From: Thermomicrobiales bacterium | Lineage (GTDB): Bacteria; Chloroflexota; Chloroflexia; Thermomicrobiales; UBA6265 | Assembly: GCA_037724245.1 (NCBI GenBank) | Contig: JBBJOX010000002.1 | Coordinates: 1-32,296 of the forward strand | Direction of reading: 5' to 3' | DNA length: 32,296 bases | Part shown: piece by piece, positions 2,828-6,598 of the stretch | How the letters are laid out: each line of letters starts with the position of its first letter | How positions within the stretch are numbered: the stretch's first letter is position 1 | The notes under the pieces: generated by a model | What the model was told of the DNA's origin: nothing | The model's input: only the letters and a program-made list of their open reading frames with translations | Database searches by the model: none | Position numbers and translations under genes: made by a program

Positions 2828-2856
2828 ACTATACCCATAGGGGGTATATTAGTCAA
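2828..2856 (-). promoter_or_regulatory. sigma70-type promoter with operator palindrome in the spacer (upstream of copB)
   Basis: Minus strand reads TTGACT(2851-2856)-17 nt-TATAGT(2828-2833). The spacer and -10 contain TATACCC-N5-GGGTATA (2830-2848). This is the same architecture as at 736-764. Confidence 0.65.
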
Positions 2857-2957: not shown

Positions 2958-4403
2958 TCAGGTCGAACTGCCTCGGGCGACTCGCGGGCGCAGGTTCATC
3001 GAGTCGAGCGCGGCGACGAGGGCGGCGCTGATCACGAGATCGTCGTGGCCATCGCTCTCGGGTACGGACCAGCGCAGGATGTTGCCAGGCCCGTTCATCA
3101 CCTGAAACGTCGTCGCCCGCATCTGGGCAAGGAATTCACGCGATTCGATCGCGTCATCGAACCGATAGTCACGAAAGCGGCCGGCGTCGATCAGGCCAAT
3201 GAAATCCCAGCCGAGCTGACTCTTGCTCGATCCCGTGAACAGGAATGGCAAGACGCGGATGCCACCTCGATCCAGCGTTGCCGCCAGAAACGAGGCCAGA
3301 CCGGCACCGATCCCGGTGGCATCGACGATCAACCAGGATGCCTTCCAGATGTTCCGGGCCAGATCGATGATCGTCTCGTGAAGCGCCGCATGACGCTGCC
3401 CGGTCCAGAGCCGACGGTCGACGACGCGATACACGGCGCGACCATCGGGACGTTCCTGCGTGTCGACCTCGACCACGGTCAATGCCGTGCTGTCGCGGCG
3501 CGAGCTGCTGGCGAAGGCGAGTGGCCCGCTTCCGGTTTCTTCCTCACCGGCAACATCGAGGAGCAGGGCATAACGCTTCCCCGGTGTGCCAGAGGTCTGG
3601 CGAGGGTGATCGCCTTGCATCTGGGCGAGACGATGCTCCGGGAAAAGACCGCCATCGCTGTCCAGTTCCTCCAGGCAGTACTCGGTGCGAACAAAGGGAT
3701 GTTCCTCCCCAAGTTGCTGCATGCGTGCCCGCACTCGCTCTCCGTAGACCGGAACATCTGCTGCCACGATTTGCCATGGAACGAGAAAAACACGCTGCGT
3801 GCCGTCGCGCGCTTCGAGGATGCGAAGGTGTCGCATCTGCCGCGCGAGCAAGGTCGAACTGCTCCAGACTGTGCCCAGAAAGAGGGTTGTGGCGTTGGTA
3901 CTGGCCGCCATCGGATCGAACACGGCGTCCCAGACATCCGGTTGAATGTCCTGCGCCTCGTTGGCGACCAGCAGGAGATCGGCAGTTTGGCCACGGGCGT
4001 TGGCTCCGGGCGCTGCCGAAACGAACCTCGCCCTGGCCCGACCGATCTGCGTGATTCCAGCGGCCGTACTCGTCAAGCAGGCAGTCAATGGATTCCCGCG
4101 CAGGCGATCGCGCAGGCGATCGCGGCTGAGTTCCGCCTGCGGTCTCAGCGTCGGTGCCGCAACCACGATCGTGCCGCCACGCTGTGAAAACCTCAACAGC
4201 AAAAGTGCCGTCAGTTGCGCCAGCATCTCGTCCTTGCCGGCCTGGCGCGAAAAGACGATCGCGAACTGGTGTCCGCGCTGGTTAATCACGCTGTCGAGGA
4301 TCGCCTGAGCCGGGATCTGCTGATAGGGGCGCAGGGTGTGCGACATCAGCAATGACGAGAAGATATCGATGTCGCTGACCAGTCGATGAATTGCCCGGTT
4401 CAC
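2958..4403 (-). CDS. phage terminase large subunit (TerL)-like ATPase/nuclease, orphan
   Basis: 481 aa. Deviant Walker A FSRQAGKDE, Walker B-like DLLLVANEAQD, then RNaseH-like nuclease motifs ALLLDVAG, WLIVDATGIGAGLASFL and DGHDDLVISAALVA. The GTG start overlaps the upstream stop (GTGA). Confidence 0.8.
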   Translation of the reverse strand: MNRAIHRLVSDIDIFSSLLMSHTLRPYQQIPAQAILDSVINQRGHQFAIVFSRQAGKDEMLAQLTALLLLRFSQRGGTIVVAAPTLRPQAELSRDRLRDRLRGNPLTACLTSTAAGITQIGRARARFVSAAPGANARGQTADLLLVANEAQDIQPDVWDAVFDPMAASTNATTLFLGTVWSSSTLLARQMRHLRILEARDGTQRVFLVPWQIVAADVPVYGERVRARMQQLGEEHPFVRTEYCLEELDSDGGLFPEHRLAQMQGDHPRQTSGTPGKRYALLLDVAGEEETGSGPLAFASSSRRDSTALTVVEVDTQERPDGRAVYRVVDRRLWTGQRHAALHETIIDLARNIWKASWLIVDATGIGAGLASFLAATLDRGGIRVLPFLFTGSSKSQLGWDFIGLIDAGRFRDYRFDDAIESREFLAQMRATTFQVMNGPGNILRWSVPESDGHDDLVISAALVAALDSMNLRPRVARGSST

Positions 4404-4672
4404 CCGCCAAGCACACGGCTGACGATATCGATCACGATCGCGCCGATAAGCACGAACACGAGATTGTTCAGTTTGCTCTTGATGTCGCGCACATCTTCGG
4501 AAATCGATTCGACCATCTGCCGGGTCACCATTTCGTAGCCGGATGGTTCATGCGAGGTCGAGCCCTGGTTAGGGTTGGCCTGTTGCAGCCGGCGGATACG
4601 TTCGACCTGGGCGCGGAGGGCATCACCCGACGGATCGCGGTGGGTTCCGCCGGGAAGCAGGGTGAGCGTCAT
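4400..4672 (-). CDS. small tail-anchored membrane protein, coiled-coil N-terminus plus one C-terminal TM (XhlA-like architecture)
   Basis: 90 aa. The polar/charged N-terminal part (ALRAQVERIRRLQQ, SEDVRDIKSKLNN) is followed by LVFVLIGAIVIDIVSRVLGG. ATGA overlap with the upstream gene and GTGA overlap with the TerL-like gene. RBS AAAGGA. Confidence 0.6.
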   Translation of the reverse strand: MTLTLLPGGTHRDPSGDALRAQVERIRRLQQANPNQGSTSHEPSGYEMVTRQMVESISEDVRDIKSKLNNLVFVLIGAIVIDIVSRVLGG

Positions 4673-5082
4673 TGCTGATCCTTTCGGGGGTGATCGATCG
4701 GATTCGTAATCGGCGCCAATCCGCCGAGTTCATCCAGCGCCTTGCTGAGTTCGTCGAGAATGTCGCTGGCCGATTGGCCGGTGAGTTCGTGGTGGGCCTG
4801 AACGGTACGCAACGTGACCGAGACGACGCGAGCGACGTTCATGGCGAGTCGGTTCAGGTCGTCTTCCTCGGCCAGTAATCGGGCGAGGACGACGCGCAGC
4901 GAGCCAATTTCCTCGGACAGACCGAGTTCGGCGAATTGCTCGACGGCCTGGGAGAAGATCGAATTGAGATGTTCGCCGTAGAGTGCTCGATAGTTTCCGT
5001 CCTGCAGACGCTGCACGAATTCCTGACGACGGGCCAAGGCGTTTGCCCGCGCGGTCGCGTTGGTGGTGGTTTTGGCTGACAT
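4669..5082 (-). CDS. hypothetical all-helical protein, first gene of the TerL-like operon (a TerS-like role is possible but unsupported)
   Basis: 137 aa with protein-like composition. A strong RBS (GGAGGGA) lies just upstream of the ATG, and the stop overlaps the next start (ATGA). I recognise no motif. Confidence 0.6.
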   Translation of the reverse strand: MSAKTTTNATARANALARRQEFVQRLQDGNYRALYGEHLNSIFSQAVEQFAELGLSEEIGSLRVVLARLLAEEDDLNRLAMNVARVVSVTLRTVQAHHELTGQSASDILDELSKALDELGGLAPITNPIDHPRKDQQ

Positions 5083-5100
5083 GGTCCCTCCGGAGTGAAC

Positions 5101-5114
5101 AGAACATATGTTCT
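5101..5114. promoter_or_regulatory. LexA (SOS) box, Gram-positive/Cheo type GAAC-N4-GTTC
   Basis: Perfect 14-bp palindrome AGAACATATGTTCT, 18 nt upstream of the ATG at 5082. Extra GAAC/GTTC half-sites occur at 5097-5100, 5121-5124 and 5133-5136. Confidence 0.6.
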
Positions 5115-5383
5115 ATTTCTGTTCTGATATTCGAACGCGCTGCCGGGTGCGGTCTGCGCCAGACGAACCCGTGCCTCGTGCACTCGCTACCGGATCGAGG
5201 GAACCACTGGCAACCCTGACGCGTTTAGACCTTGATTGCAGCGATGTCGCGACACATCGAACGCATGACTTTCGTTCGCAGCGGGGTACCGAAACGTCGA
5301 TGAGACGCCTGAAGTACCATTGCTTGCTGCGAACCGCCTTATCGGTCGCACGGGTCTTATTTGGAGAAGGAGGGATCATCTCC

Positions 5384-5941
5384 ATGCGGAAACTTTTGAC
5401 AGGTCTGTTCGCATTACTGATGCTCATCGGGAGCTCAGCTGGTGTGATGGCCGCGCAAGACGACGAAGCAACACCGGCAGACGATACAACTGCCGAAGCT
5501 GGCGAAGTGAATCCACGGGATCCACAGATTGGTGATCCGGTCATCTATTACAGTGAAGAGGGTGATCCTGTTGCCCAGTTCACGGTGACCGCCGTCGAAG
5601 CTGGCTGGGAGGGATACGATGAGTATTCCGAGCCACCTGCTGGGTCGCAGTATGTTGTGGTCTCGATGTCAGTCGAAAACCTGACCGAGCGCAGCACCTT
5701 CGAAGTCAGTGAGTATCGCTTCAGCGTTCAGGACAACCTTGGTTACCTCTATGGTTCGCCATACGTGAGCCCCGAGGAAGATCTGGATCCACCGCTGATC
5801 GAGAGTGATATCTCGCTCGAAGGTGAAGCCGTCGAAGAGTTCTCGCTCGTCTTCCTCGTGTACGAAGATATTGGCCTGAACTACCTCTACTACTCGGACA
5901 GCGGAATTCTGCTAACCCTGGTTGATCTCTCGGAGATCTAG
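5384..5941 (+). CDS. secreted DUF4352-like beta-sandwich protein
   Basis: An internal ATG at 5384, preceded by GGAGAAGGAGGGA, gives MRKLLTGLFALLMLIGSSAGVMAAQDD, a signal peptide. The body fits the DUF4352 pattern (GDPV..., QYVVVSMSVENLTERSTFEVSEYRFSVQDNLGYLYG). The upstream 92 codons of the track ORF are Arg-rich and not protein-like. Confidence 0.75.
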   Translation: MRKLLTGLFALLMLIGSSAGVMAAQDDEATPADDTTAEAGEVNPRDPQIGDPVIYYSEEGDPVAQFTVTAVEAGWEGYDEYSEPPAGSQYVVVSMSVENLTERSTFEVSEYRFSVQDNLGYLYGSPYVSPEEDLDPPLIESDISLEGEAVEEFSLVFLVYEDIGLNYLYYSDSGILLTLVDLSEI

Positions 5942-5971
5942 GCTCATCCAATCCGATGAACGCCACAGCCT

Positions 5972-5994
5972 CGCGACCTTGCTACAAGGTCGCG
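5972..5994 (+). terminator. hairpin between the two DUF4352 paralogs (possible attenuating terminator)
   Basis: CGCGACCTT-GCTAC-AAGGTCGCG, a perfect 9-bp stem. There is no clear T-tract. Confidence 0.3.
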
Positions 5995-6049
5995 GGGCTC
6001 TCCATCCAATCTCACCATTGCATCATTCATCGATACAGGAGATTCATCT

Positions 6050-6598
6050 ATGCGACGCTTGTTCGGAGGACTGCTGATTCTGATAGTTGCGGCCGCGCTG
6101 ATGCTTCCCGGATCAATGACTGCGGCAACACTCCAGGAATCGACACCTGTTTCCCGCGGTGGCGGGGATGTTCAGCCGGGAGAACCGGTTTCCTACATCA
6201 GTGAATCCGGAAGTGAAATAGCGACGCTCCAGGTAACGCAAGTTGTGCGACCCTGGGACGAATTTGATGAATTCTATGAGCCGACAACCGGTACCGAATA
6301 TGTTGCCTTTCAAATAGAAGTGACCCACCTTGGTCGACGCGGCGATCTCGTGATTCGCGGATCCGACTTCCGACTCCAGGATGTCGATGGATTTCTGATC
6401 GGCGAGGCGTTTGCCAATGCCGTCGATGATGCGGAACTGGCGCCGACCGAAGATGATTTGGCGATCCCATCCGGGGAAACCATGCAGGTTGTCGTGGTCT
6501 TTCAGATAATCGAGGGAATCGATCTCAGCAATCTCTACTGGCTTCCCGAATACGACCGAATGATTACCGTGGCCGATCTTTCCAGCCCCGAGGAGTAG
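6050..6598 (+). CDS. secreted DUF4352-like beta-sandwich protein (paralog of 5384-5941)
   Basis: 182 aa. Signal peptide MRRLFGGLLILIVAAALMLPGSMTAA, and the same layout as the upstream gene (GEPVSYISESGSEIATLQVTQV..., EYVAFQIEVTHLGRRGDLVIRGSDFRLQDVDGFLIG). RBS CAGGAG. Confidence 0.8.
   Translation: MRRLFGGLLILIVAAALMLPGSMTAATLQESTPVSRGGGDVQPGEPVSYISESGSEIATLQVTQVVRPWDEFDEFYEPTTGTEYVAFQIEVTHLGRRGDLVIRGSDFRLQDVDGFLIGEAFANAVDDAELAPTEDDLAIPSGETMQVVVVFQIIEGIDLSNLYWLPEYDRMITVADLSSPEE

What the first reader, a model, noticed from the sequence alone, without database searches (positions are those of the whole stretch)
2958..5114. SOS-box-fronted, translationally coupled trio: helical protein, tail-anchored coiled-coil protein, orphan TerL-like ATPase/nuclease
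Three minus-strand genes (4669-5082, 4400-4672, 2958-4403) overlap by ATGA and GTGA, so they form one translational unit. The last gene encodes a clear phage large-terminase fold: a T4-like deviant Walker A, a Walker B region, and three RNaseH-type acidic nuclease motifs. Nothing else phage-like lies nearby. The downstream neighbour is a copper ATPase with its own promoter, and the upstream neighbours are secreted DUF4352 proteins. There is no portal, capsid, integrase or recognisable TerS. A small membrane protein with the architecture of XhlA-type lysis-cassette proteins (about 90 aa, coiled coil plus one C-terminal TM) sits where a phage would normally place TerS directly against TerL. A perfect LexA box lies 18 nt upstream of the first ATG. 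Together this looks like either a minimal prophage remnant kept under host SOS control, or a domesticated DNA-damage-induced module that couples a packaging-type nuclease/ATPase to the membrane. I know of no described system with this composition.
Basis: partly seen in the sequence, partly recalled or inferred. Interest (0 to 1): 0.8.

Follow-up and report, generated by a model that had tools for sequence, protein, structure and literature searches.

The report
Domesticated phage DNA-packaging operon, SOS-controlled
The three genes are the DNA-packaging part of an ancient virus-derived gene set that Thermomicrobiales bacteria have kept intact, scattered around the chromosome and apparently wired to the DNA-damage alarm, so this is probably a gene-transfer-agent-like particle system rather than a new kind of membrane nuclease.

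Summary
Three overlapping minus-strand genes (A 4669-5082, B 4400-4672, TerL 2958-4403) lie behind a perfect AGAACATATGTTCT palindrome. No other phage gene is in the 32 kb window. TerL is a genuine large terminase by profile and by fold.

"Orphan" is true only for this locus. The TerL family has more than 1,600 relatives, in 116 species genomes of Thermomicrobiales/Chloroflexia. In many of them, A-B-TerL sits in a compact 8-10 kb head cluster: scaffold-like gene, HK97 capsid, SPP1-type portal, SU10-type adaptor, MuF-like gene, a ~600 aa protein, and often lysis genes. In relatives that share the window's "trio alone" locus, those genes lie elsewhere on the same contig, 9, ~230 and ~300 kb away. 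Several of the separated modules carry the same palindrome.

TerL is as conserved as the flanking housekeeping genes (dN/dS 0.12-0.26). Its catalytic residues are invariant, and an Asp/Asn swap between Walker A and B covaries perfectly.

Best reading: this is the packaging operon of a vertically inherited, dispersed, probably LexA-controlled, GTA- or PBSX-like particle system.

Not shown: LexA binding, particle formation, the roles of A and B, and whether this MAG holds the other modules.

The parts
2958..4403 (-). TerL: phage-type large terminase with an N-terminal ASCE ATPase and a C-terminal RNase H-like nuclease.
   Evidence: Pfam Terminase_6C and PHROG phrog_2 hits. Foldseek top hits are solved phage terminases at 4e-11 to 1e-7 and BFVD terminases down to 2e-23. 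Catalytic motifs are invariant in 26 orthologs. Walker A GK-D pairs with Walker B N-E in 91 sequences, against GK-N with D-E in 15, with no mixed forms. dN/dS is 0.12-0.26.
4400..4672 (-). Protein B: 90 aa, with a conserved YE-VTRQMVE motif, an amphipathic helix and one C-terminal hydrophobic helix. Function unknown (XhlA/holin-like architecture).
   Evidence: An ortholog lies directly upstream of TerL in about 60 loci. The 4-nt overlap with TerL is conserved in gene calls. There is no Pfam or PHROG hit for the window copy. Among orthologs, 2 hit XhlA, 1 hits Phage_holin_9 and 1 hits a holin PHROG, all at E 1e-3 to 1e-2.
4669..5082 (-). Protein A: a 137 aa all-helical protein. Most orthologs carry an N-terminal Cys-rich zinc-ribbon-like segment (C-x4-C...C-x2-H) that is missing here. 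It is a candidate small-terminase-like DNA-recognition partner, by position only.
   Evidence: Orthologs lie upstream of B in about 55 loci. The conserved core is EIG[AS]LR.VLARLL.EE.D. Zinc-finger Pfam hits occur in 5 orthologs. The AlphaFold model is low confidence (pLDDT 57) and gives no significant fold match.
5086..5091 (-). Shine-Dalgarno-like GGAGGG for gene A.
   Evidence: Read directly from the sequence.
5101..5114 (.). AGAACATATGTTCT palindrome matching the GAAC-N4-GTTC LexA operator type. It is the candidate operator of the trio promoter.
   Evidence: One exact match in the window against 0.01 expected. An exact GAAC-N4-GTTC lies within 450 nt upstream of the A domain in 24 of 54 orthologous loci, against 2.3% of background 450-nt windows. 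The same palindrome stands in front of separated portal, scaffold-capsid and lysis modules in relatives.
5126..5138 (-). Conserved GCGTTCG block followed by a -10-like hexamer (AATATC here), 17 nt upstream of the palindrome. Probably part of a promoter shared by the modules.
   Evidence: An anchored comparison of 32 A-upstream regions and 7 upstream regions of other modules shows GCGTTCG 13-25 nt upstream of the palindrome, followed by TAnnAn.
5384..6598 (+). Two divergently transcribed genes for secreted DUF4352-type proteins (5384-5941 and 6050-6598). They are conserved neighbours of the trio. Whether they belong to the element or only mark its ancestral site is not resolved.
   Evidence: Pfam DUF4352 E=3.7e-7 for the first gene. 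Homologs lie divergent from A in 31 loci, including loci with the full head cluster.

Best explanation
The trio is the packaging operon of an old, vertically inherited, phage-derived gene set of Thermomicrobiales/Chloroflexia.

The full set holds these genes:
- A and B
- TerL
- a scaffold-like protein
- an HK97-fold capsid protein
- an SPP1-type portal
- an SU10-type adaptor
- a MuF-like protein
- a ~600 aa protein of unknown fold
- often a lysis pair that includes a holin

In many genomes these genes form one compact 8-10 kb cluster. In the window's lineage the cluster has been broken up. A-B-TerL stays at a fixed chromosomal site next to the DUF4352 genes and the pan/ubi genes, and the other modules sit elsewhere on the chromosome.

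Several of the separated modules keep the same promoter architecture, with a GAAC-N4-GTTC palindrome.

Proposed mechanism (inferred):
1. In undamaged cells LexA sits on these palindromes and keeps all modules off.
2. DNA damage leads to LexA self-cleavage and co-induces the modules.
3. Procapsids assemble. TerL docks on the portal, perhaps helped by A as the DNA-recognition partner, then cuts DNA with its RNase H-type nuclease and pumps it in with its ATPase.
4. The lysis genes release DNA-filled particles.

The outcome would resemble a gene transfer agent or the SOS-induced defective phage PBSX.

Shown: gene identities, conservation, synteny, dispersal, the shared palindrome and purifying selection.

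Inferred: LexA binding, induction, particle formation, what DNA is packaged, the roles of A and B, and the presence of the other modules in this particular MAG.
For: Identity. TerL is supported by profile and by fold.

Breadth. There are 1,676 homologs. The top 120 are 61-100% identical, nearly all full length, and some lie on contigs up to 803 kb. Relatives occur in 116 species-representative genomes.

Fixed locus. The flanks are the same in L001, L002, L004, L085, L086 and the P0004 contig: a DUF4352 pair and panE/panC/ubiA/ubiE on one side, and a variable other side.

Head cluster in relatives.
- L063 holds A, B, capsid PF05065, portal PF05133, SU10 adaptor, TerL, a glycoside hydrolase and a MuF-like gene.
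- L064 holds capsid, portal, TerL and an amidase.
- L022 has a capsid hit to phrog_212 at 3e-78 and a portal hit to phrog_64 at 5e-26.
- The arrangement table for about 100 loci is.
- Compact versions appear on IMG/VR contigs.

Dispersal in genomes with the trio alone.
- L001 genome: scaffold-capsid-[host genes]-portal-adaptor-MuF-632 aa-353 aa-holin lies about 230 kb from the trio on the same 803 kb contig.
- L004 genome: portal-adaptor-MuF-632 aa...holin lies about 300 kb away.
- L002 genome: portal-adaptor-MuF-625 aa-[IS200-like]-332 aa-holin lies about 9 kb away on the other strand.
- Portal and TerL share contig lengths in further genomes: 269,508, 380,713 and 44,432 bp.

Shared operator.
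- 24 of 54 A promoters carry an exact palindrome, against 2.3% of background windows.
- The palindrome lies 53 nt upstream of the L088 portal, 60 nt upstream of the L089 scaffold-capsid pair, and upstream of the L087/L005 332 aa-holin pair and the L088 holin.

Selection.
- TerL dN/dS is 0.12-0.26 with saturated dS.
- TerL identity is 63-77%, equal to or above that of the neighbouring UbiA, ApbA and UbiE.
- All catalytic motifs are kept, and the Walker A/B Asp-Asn swap covaries perfectly.

Motif type. GAAC-N4-GTTC is the LexA motif of Gram-positive bacteria (PMC3323433). From my own recollection, it is also that of Dehalococcoides, phylum Chloroflexota (Fernandez de Henestrosa et al. 2002, J Bacteriol 184:6073). 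I could not retrieve that paper here.
Against: - No capsid, portal or lysis gene is in the 32 kb window. None could be assigned to this MAG: the top 120 portal homologs hold no protein with an accession from the same assembly series.
- The closest relatives (72-82% TerL identity) were seen only on contigs that show the trio alone.
- No lexA or recA promoter of this taxon could be inspected. The palindrome could therefore be the site of another repressor.
- About 40% of orthologous A promoters lack a recognisable palindrome.
- No recognisable tail-tube, tape-measure or fibre genes were found, so the particle, if made, may be tail-less or have only a minimal short tail.
- A and B match no small-terminase family.
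- Walker A and Walker B both deviate from the canonical forms.
Confidence: 0.58

Rival explanations
1. Stand-alone module. In this lineage A-B-TerL has been co-opted to work without capsids. It would be a DNA-damage-induced nuclease/translocase acting at the membrane (through B), for example in DNA degradation, eDNA release or defence.
For: The trio alone occupies a fixed locus in at least 17 genomes with 5-6 kb or more of flank on both sides. B has a C-terminal hydrophobic helix and is always coupled to TerL. No head gene is in the window, and none was found for this MAG.
Against: Where long contigs exist, genomes with the trio alone still carry intact portal, adaptor, MuF-like and lysis genes, and in one of them a capsid gene, behind the same palindrome. 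A, B and TerL have the same sequence features in genomes where they are embedded in the head cluster. PADLOC gives no hit for TerL or B and only a marginal Orf5 hit for A, at E=0.003.
Confidence: 0.12
2. Mobile satellite or cryptic temperate phage. The gene set is a capsid-forming satellite (cf-PICI-like) or a small prophage that still moves between cells and borrows tails and replication functions from a helper. The trio would be its packaging module.
For: The compact 8-10 kb versions contain head and packaging genes and no tail tube, as in capsid-forming PICIs (own knowledge of that family). 25 IMG/VR contigs carry relatives. Gene order differs widely between lineages.
Against: The chromosomal flanks are the same across genomes whose housekeeping genes are only 52-83% identical. 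No integrase was called, and no replication or tRNA attachment feature was recognised, in the 6-10 kb flanks examined. Modules are separated by up to about 300 kb and interrupted by host genes, so the set cannot be excised or packaged as a unit. TerL divergence is comparable to that of neighbouring host genes.
Confidence: 0.13
3. Functionless prophage debris that merely persists next to a chance palindrome.
For: The trio is isolated from other phage genes in the window. A diverges quickly (27-43% identity) and has lost its zinc-ribbon segment here.
Against: TerL is full length with invariant catalytic residues in 26 of 26 close orthologs and near-universally in 110 sequences. dN/dS is 0.12-0.26, and conservation equals or exceeds that of flanking housekeeping genes. 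The compensatory Asp/Asn swap implies selection on the ATPase site. The palindrome is conserved across loci and across modules.
Confidence: 0.04
4. Same element, different switch. The palindrome is the operator of a dedicated, domesticated phage repressor or another host regulator, not of LexA, so induction need not follow DNA damage.
For: Every well-formed palindrome in 1.25 Mb of fetched sequence lies next to a module of the element, apart from one in L087 that lies upstream of pckA. A further conserved GCGTTCG block accompanies the palindrome. No lexA or recA promoter of the taxon could be checked.
Against: The site is a perfect match to the GAAC-N4-GTTC LexA motif class (PMC3323433). No repressor gene is conserved next to the modules in the flanks examined. 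The fetched sequence is centred on the element, so the lack of other sites carries little weight.
Confidence: 0.2

Closest known systems
Gene transfer agents (RcGTA of Rhodobacter capsulatus and other independently domesticated GTAs)
   Same: Phage-derived head and packaging genes are fixed in the host chromosome. They are inherited vertically under purifying selection, lack integration genes in the flanks seen and have no recognised replication genes. They are spread over several loci, as in the multi-locus RcGTA 'genome' (PMC5026251, title and abstract). Control is apparently by the host. LexA is known to influence GTA production in alphaproteobacteria (papers listed; mechanism recalled from my own knowledge).
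   Different: The phylum is different (Chloroflexota). The head module is unrelated: an SPP1-type portal and an SU10-type adaptor, pointing to a podovirus-like connector, with no tail-tube or tape-measure genes recognised. A candidate LexA operator sits directly on several modules, rather than indirect control through CtrA/GafA. Packaging of random host DNA and transfer to recipients are untested.
PBSX-type defective prophages of Bacillus (SOS-induced particles that package host DNA and lyse the producer)
   Same: Production would be triggered by DNA damage. The phage-derived genes are chromosomally fixed. Lysis genes are included, along with a small XhlA-like tail-anchored protein. (The properties of PBSX are from my own knowledge.)
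   Different: PBSX is one contiguous ~28 kb element with a full contractile tail and its own repressor (Xre) and late sigma-like factor. Here the genes are few, dispersed and apparently tail-less or short-tailed. The XhlA-like gene sits between A and TerL, not in the lysis cassette.
Large terminases of cultured phages (Bacillus phages vB_BboS-125 and BCD7; T4 gp17 as the structural reference)
   Same: The two-domain fold and the motif order are the same: adenine-binding YQ, SRQxGK Walker A as in T4 gp17 (own knowledge), Walker B with catalytic Glu, GT[VI]W coupling motif, and three acidic nuclease residues.
   Different: Identity to the nearest cultured phage is only 22-30%. A PDB sequence-profile search finds nothing. 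Walker A ends in Asp and Walker B has Asn in place of Asp, a swap relative to the GK-N/D-E form of the distant relatives.
Capsid-forming phage-inducible chromosomal islands (cf-PICIs)
   Same: A small head-plus-packaging gene set with no tail genes recognised.
   Different: No integrase was called, and no replication or regulatory module typical of PICIs was recognised, in the flanks examined. The chromosomal position is fixed, the genes are scattered, and divergence is comparable to that of neighbouring host genes.

Membership tests
Phage large terminase (TerL) | C-terminal RNase H-like nuclease domain with conserved acidic catalytic residues | tested here: met
   Pfam Terminase_6C covers residues 298-456 at 23.6 bits, against a 22.6-bit cut-off. 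D283, D361 and D454/D455 are invariant in 26 orthologs and near-universal in 110 sequences.
Phage large terminase (TerL) | N-terminal ASCE ATPase with Walker A, Walker B plus catalytic Glu, adenine-binding motif and coupling motif | tested here: met
   YQ, SRQ[AS]GK[DN], hhhh[ND]E and GT[VI]W are conserved. The site deviates from the canon (GK-D with N-E), but the deviation covaries perfectly with the GK-N/D-E form.
Phage large terminase (TerL) | Overall two-domain terminase fold | tested here: met
   Foldseek top hits are PhiV-1, HK97, T4 gp17, Sf6 gp2 and D6E terminases at E 4e-11 to 1e-5, and BCD7 TerL at 2e-23 in BFVD. The model has mean pLDDT 71.
Phage large terminase (TerL) | ATP-driven DNA packaging into a portal-bearing procapsid | not testable with these tools
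   This needs biochemistry. Portal and capsid genes co-occur with TerL in relatives.
Gene transfer agent-like domesticated element | Phage structural and packaging genes in the chromosome, with no integrase called and no replication or lysogeny genes recognised | tested here: met
   This holds for relatives: with no integrase in the called genes. For the window itself only the trio is visible.
Gene transfer agent-like domesticated element | Vertical inheritance with purifying selection over long times | tested here: met
   The flanks are conserved. dN/dS is 0.12-0.26 with saturated dS, and TerL identity is equal to or above that of neighbouring housekeeping genes. No formal tree congruence test was done.
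Gene transfer agent-like domesticated element | Particles package host DNA in pieces too small to carry the element, and deliver it to recipients | not testable with these tools
   This needs induction, particle purification and sequencing. Scattering of modules over up to about 300 kb makes self-packaging impossible in those genomes.
Gene transfer agent-like domesticated element | A tail or other adsorption device | tested here: inconclusive
   Only an SU10-type adaptor and a conserved ~600 aa protein with no family or PDB match were found. No tube, sheath or tape-measure gene was seen.
LexA (SOS) regulon | Promoter-proximal operator matching the LexA motif of the taxon (GAAC-N4-GTTC class) | tested here: met
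   AGAACATATGTTCT lies at 5101-5114, 18 nt from the ATG. The motif class is given in PMC3323433. Its use in Chloroflexota is from memory only.
LexA (SOS) regulon | Operator conserved in orthologous promoters | tested here: met
   24 of 54 loci have an exact palindrome, and about 5 more have one mismatch in the same context, against 2.3% of background windows. The palindrome also stands on separated modules.
LexA (SOS) regulon | Same motif at the lexA and recA promoters of the same taxon; LexA binding; induction by DNA damage | not tested
EMSA and RNA-seq are experiments.
XhlA family (PF10779), for protein B | Significant match to the family profile | tested here: not met
   The window copy has no hit at E up to 1. 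Only 2 of about 58 orthologs hit, at E about 1e-3. The architecture is similar: a helix plus one C-terminal hydrophobic helix.
Small terminase (TerS), for protein A | Homology or fold match to a known TerS family | tested here: not met
   There is no Pfam or PHROG TerS hit for the window copy or for 47 orthologs. The model has pLDDT 57 and no Foldseek hit below E=0.5. Only its position upstream of TerL and a zinc-ribbon-like segment in orthologs point that way.
Decaying prophage remnant | Frameshifts or truncations, patchy distribution, relaxed selection | tested here: not met
   A few split hits occur in long-read MAGs (L068, L079, L082) and look like assembly indels. This was not examined further.

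The most novel reading that the evidence does not exclude
Thermomicrobiales and related Chloroflexia carry an order-wide, independently domesticated, gene-transfer-agent-like particle system built from a podovirus-type head. Its modules have drifted apart on the chromosome. They are held together only by a shared promoter and LexA operator, so DNA damage makes cells package DNA and lyse. This would be the first such system in Chloroflexota. Its terminase has moved the metal-binding carboxylate from Walker B to Walker A.
Probability: 0.35. Interest if true: 0.8.

Novelty: new variant of a known kind. Interest (0 to 1): 0.6.

Why it matters
Known gene transfer agents come from a handful of lineages, mostly Alphaproteobacteria. 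How often phages are domesticated in this way, and how hosts control the result, remain open questions.

This case is a conserved head, packaging and lysis gene set in a poorly studied phylum, present in more than a hundred species. Its modules are scattered, and several carry the same candidate SOS operator. That gives a cleanly testable example of host capture by regulon formation.

It also matters for annotation. In these genomes an isolated 'terminase' or 'portal' is not evidence of a prophage, and IMG/VR-type viral calls for the 8-10 kb clusters are probably host loci.

The perfectly covarying Asp/Asn exchange between Walker A and Walker B is a small natural experiment on the terminase ATPase site.

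Tried and rejected
- A PDB sequence-profile search with the TerL alignment found nothing. Only the fold search worked.
- Protein A: 14 homologs were found by word-index search. The AlphaFold model has pLDDT 57 and no meaningful BFVD match, so the TerS idea stays positional.
- PADLOC gave no defence family for TerL, B or the DUF4352 proteins, and a marginal Orf5 hit for A at E=0.003.
- The PLSDB plasmid collection has no relative of TerL.
- Sequence searches of the ~600 aa, 332 aa and scaffold-like proteins against PDB gave only noise. Pfam and PHROG also gave nothing for them.
- A 295-aa ORF in the capsid position of L087 was rejected as spurious. Its composition is odd, and the opposite strand encodes a Rieske/DUF2231 protein. 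The palindrome at L087:5920 lies between pckA and that gene, inside a 15-nt-arm perfect inverted repeat, and may not belong to the portal operon.
- I looked for lexA and recA in all fetched loci, to test the motif on bona fide SOS genes. None was found in 1.25 Mb.
- I tried to retrieve the Dehalococcoides LexA paper. It is not held.
- I tried to find this MAG's portal among the top 120 portal homologs by accession series. None was found. This says nothing about absence.
- The genome contigs and metagenome-contig scans were each used once. The metagenome scan returned only the L002 contig again, which was useful to extend it.

Full report
OBSERVATION

The three minus-strand ORFs are as described:
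- A: 4669-5082, 137 aa
- B: 4400-4672, 90 aa
- TerL: 2958-4403, 481 aa, GTG start

They overlap by ATGA and GTGA. A perfect AGAACATATGTTCT palindrome lies at 5101-5114, 18 nt upstream of the A start codon, with GGAGGG in between. The 14-mer occurs once in the window, against 0.01 expected. The 12-nt core alone would not be remarkable, at 0.55 expected.

The rest of the 32 kb is ordinary chromosome:
- a P-type ATPase with its own promoter-like site
- two secreted DUF4352-type proteins
- panE/panB/panC-ubiA-ubiE
- 2-oxoglutarate dehydrogenase E1/E2
- peptide ABC transporter genes
- an Hsp20

There are no tRNA genes and no Rfam matches. The contig is a Thermomicrobiales MAG (locus tag WKF81_00210).

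TerL IS A REAL TERMINASE

- Pfam Terminase_6C passes its cut-off. PHROG phrog_2 'terminase large subunit' scores 3e-9.
- A PDB sequence-profile search finds nothing.
- An AlphaFold model (pLDDT 71) has only phage large terminases as its top Foldseek hits: PhiV-1, HK97, T4 gp17, Sf6 gp2 and D6E, and Bacillus phage BCD7 at 2e-23 in BFVD.
- The nearest cultured-phage proteins are only 22-30% identical.

Across 26 orthologs these positions are invariant:
- the adenine-binding YQ
- SRQ[AS]GKD
- LLLVANE
- the GTVW coupling motif
- the three acidic nuclease positions D283, D361 and D454/D455

Walker A ends in Asp instead of Ser/Thr, and Walker B has Asn instead of Asp. In 110 family members the combination is always one of two: GK-D with N-E (91 sequences, the chromosomal Thermomicrobiales type), or GK-N with D-E (15 sequences, distant IMG/VR contigs). 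There are no mixed forms. I read this as a compensated relocation of the metal-binding carboxylate, which would mean the ATPase site is under selection. That reading is an inference.

NOT DEBRIS, NOT UNIQUE

- The TerL search returns 1,676 homologs. The top 120 are 61-100% identical and nearly all full length, and several lie on contigs of 0.25-0.8 Mb.
- A scan of one genome per species finds relatives in 116 genomes of Thermomicrobiales, Sphaerobacteraceae and Chloroflexia.
- In the closest relatives with context (L085, L086, the P0004 contig, L001, L002, L004; 66-77% identity) the trio sits at the same place. The DUF4352 pair and panE/panC/ubiA/ubiE are on one side. The other side varies.
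- Pairwise dN/dS of TerL is 0.12-0.26 with saturated dS (1.1-1.9).
- TerL protein identity (63-77%) equals or exceeds that of the adjacent UbiA, ApbA and UbiE (52-83%) for the same genome pairs.
- B is moderately conserved (40-69%). A diverges fast (27-43%) but keeps its reading frame.

WHAT THE TRIO BELONGS TO

More distant relatives show TerL inside a compact phage-head cluster.
- L063 (complete 3.6 Mb chromosome OY970217.1): A, B, a scaffold-like gene, an HK97-type capsid (PF05065), an SPP1-type portal (PF05133), an SU10-type adaptor (PF24175), TerL, a glycoside hydrolase, a MuF-like gene, a 599 aa protein and a 140 aa protein, followed by a GntR regulator.
- L064: capsid, a 701 aa protein, portal, TerL and an amidase, followed by a catalase.
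- L022 (63% TerL identity): the order is A-B-TerL-scaffold-like-capsid-...-portal-adaptor-MuF. The capsid matches PHROG major head protein at 3e-78 and the portal matches at 5e-26.

Local profile searches over about 110 loci give four recurrent arrangements:
- A-B-TerL alone
- A-B-TerL-scaffold-capsid-portal-adaptor-MuF-~600 aa
- A-B-scaffold-capsid-portal-adaptor-TerL-MuF-~600 aa
- capsid-adaptor-~600 aa-portal-TerL

IMG/VR holds the same 8-10 kb clusters on short contigs. In none of the flanks examined was an integrase called or a replication, tail-tube or tape-measure gene recognised.

THE REST OF THE SET IN 'TRIO ALONE' GENOMES

A search with the portal of the L002 genome finds portals whose longest contig has the same length as the TerL contigs of L004 (658,730 bp), L001 (803,627 bp), L041 (269,508 bp), P0114 (380,713 bp) and P0060 (44,432 bp). 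Fetching two of them confirms it.
- L001 genome: scaffold-like-capsid-[four host-type genes]-portal-adaptor-MuF-like-632 aa-353 aa-holin-like lies about 230 kb from the trio.
- L004 genome: portal-adaptor-MuF-like-632 aa and a holin-like gene lie about 300 kb away.
- L002 genome: portal-adaptor-MuF-like-625 aa-[IS200-like transposase]-332 aa-holin (PHROG holin 3e-12) lies about 9 kb from the trio on the other strand.

So the set is split into separate modules that stay intact. For the window's own MAG I could not show the other modules. None is in the contig, and none of the top 120 portal homologs has an accession of its assembly series.

THE PALINDROME

- An exact GAAC-N4-GTTC lies within 450 nt upstream of the conserved domain of A in 24 of 54 loci. 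About five more have a one-mismatch version in the same AT-rich context (for example TAGATCATTCGTTCTA in L002).
- Only 2.3% of background 450-nt windows have an exact match, and that figure includes the true sites.
- The consensus is A.AGAACATaTGTTCT.aTt.

The same palindrome also fronts separated modules:
- 53 nt upstream of the L088 portal
- 60 nt upstream of the L089 scaffold-capsid pair
- upstream of the 332 aa-holin pair in L087 and L005
- upstream of the holin-like gene in L088
- upstream of the portal in L023 and L025

A conserved GCGTTCG block followed by a -10-like hexamer lies 13-25 nt upstream of the palindrome, both in A promoters and in other modules. In the window these are at 5138-5132 and 5131-5126.

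GAAC-N4-GTTC is the LexA operator of Gram-positive bacteria (PMC3323433). From memory, it is also that of Dehalococcoides (Chloroflexota). I could not retrieve that paper. I also could not inspect a lexA or recA promoter of this taxon. LexA control is therefore a well-founded inference, not a demonstration. About 40% of A promoters, mainly in one subgroup with the contiguous cluster, lack the site.

PROTEINS A AND B

A is all-helical, with a conserved core EIG[AS]LR.VLARLL.EE.D...LA. Most orthologs start with a Cys-rich zinc-ribbon-like segment (R-C-x4-C-G-R-F-V...C-x2-H) that the window copy and its nearest relatives have lost. Five orthologs hit a zinc-finger Pfam family. There is no TerS family hit, and the model is too poor for fold comparison.

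B has a conserved YE[AV]VTRQMVE motif, an amphipathic helix and a C-terminal hydrophobic helix with an embedded Asp/Glu. A few orthologs touch XhlA or holin profiles at E 1e-3 to 1e-2. The position of A next to TerL suggests a small-terminase-like role. The role of B is open.

INTERPRETATION

The best-supported reading is that the trio is the packaging operon of an anciently domesticated phage head, packaging and lysis gene set. The set is inherited vertically in Thermomicrobiales/Chloroflexia and dispersed in this lineage. It is probably switched on as a regulon by LexA cleavage, yielding DNA-filled particles and lysis, in the manner of a gene transfer agent or PBSX.

- Established: the anatomy, conservation, dispersal and shared operator.
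- Inferred: induction, particle formation, cargo, and the presence of the other modules in this MAG.

Rivals considered:
- a still-mobile satellite or cryptic phage
- inert debris
- control by a repressor other than LexA

The first is weakened by the intact head modules in genomes with the same locus. The second is weakened by the fixed flanks, the lack of mobility genes and the scattering. The third is contradicted by the selection data.

NOVELTY AND SCORE

I found no report of a GTA-like element in Chloroflexota in the literature held here. The search returned only incidental co-mentions. The concept of domesticated, host-regulated, multi-locus phage-derived particles is known. The lineage, the head type, the operator on several modules and the Walker swap are new details. 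I rate it a new variant of a known kind, with interest 0.6.

Noticed in passing
window 2828-2856 and 2831-2847 (minus strand): The P-type (copper-type) ATPase gene 761-2788 has a promoter-like TTGACT-17-TATAGT. Its spacer holds the near-palindrome ATACCCCCTATGGGTAT, which looks like a metal-sensing repressor operator of the CsoR type (from my own memory).
   Followed up: no
window 2958-4403; alignment of 110 TerL relatives: Walker A GK-D always goes with Walker B N-E (91 sequences), and GK-N always goes with D-E (15 sequences). This is a perfectly covarying Asp/Asn exchange between the two ATPase motifs.
   Followed up: partly
window 4669-5082, compared with L001:6520-6975, L086:9204-9671 and L063:441-878: Most orthologs of protein A begin with a Cys-rich zinc-ribbon-like segment (C-x4-C...C-x2-H). 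The window copy and its closest relatives lack it. In L004 the segment is a separate short ORF ending in a stop codon just upstream of A.
   Followed up: partly
window 5384-5941 and 6050-6598; 31 related loci: One to three genes for secreted DUF4352-type proteins lie divergent from gene A in 31 loci, including loci that hold the whole head cluster. They either mark an ancestral insertion site or belong to the element and share its control region.
   Followed up: partly
window 5126-5138; upstream regions in L001, L004, L007, L085, L086, L088 and L089: A conserved GCGTTCG block followed by a -10-like TAnnAn hexamer, often with a TTTTCC block about 17 nt further upstream, precedes the palindrome in A promoters and in promoters of separated modules.
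   Followed up: partly
L087:5906-5939: A perfect inverted repeat with 15-nt arms, GGAGTGAATAAGAAC-ATTA-GTTCTTATTCACTCC, contains a LexA-type box. It lies between the start of a PEP carboxykinase gene and the end of a Rieske/DUF2231 gene. Its relation to the nearby portal operon is unclear.
   Followed up: no
L002:18312-18830 (= L087, between the 625 aa and 332 aa genes): An IS200-like (Y1 transposase) gene is inserted between two modules of the element.
   Followed up: no
L089:7459-9813: Four host-type genes (GyrI-like, YjbR, a 78 aa protein, and a Rieske/DUF2231 gene on the other strand) sit between the capsid and portal genes of the element in the L001 genome. A Rieske/DUF2231 gene also lies directly upstream of the portal in L087.
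   Followed up: no
L068, L079, L082 (long-read MAGs): Capsid, portal, ~600 aa and TerL hits are split into several adjacent ORF pieces. These are probably indel errors of the assemblies rather than pseudogenes.
   Followed up: no
L096-L105 (IMG/VR contigs, TerL 42-45% identical): A more distant group has the canonical Walker B (D-E) and the order A...adaptor-TerL, on contigs up to 35 kb. It may represent free phages or another domesticated lineage related to the element.
   Followed up: no
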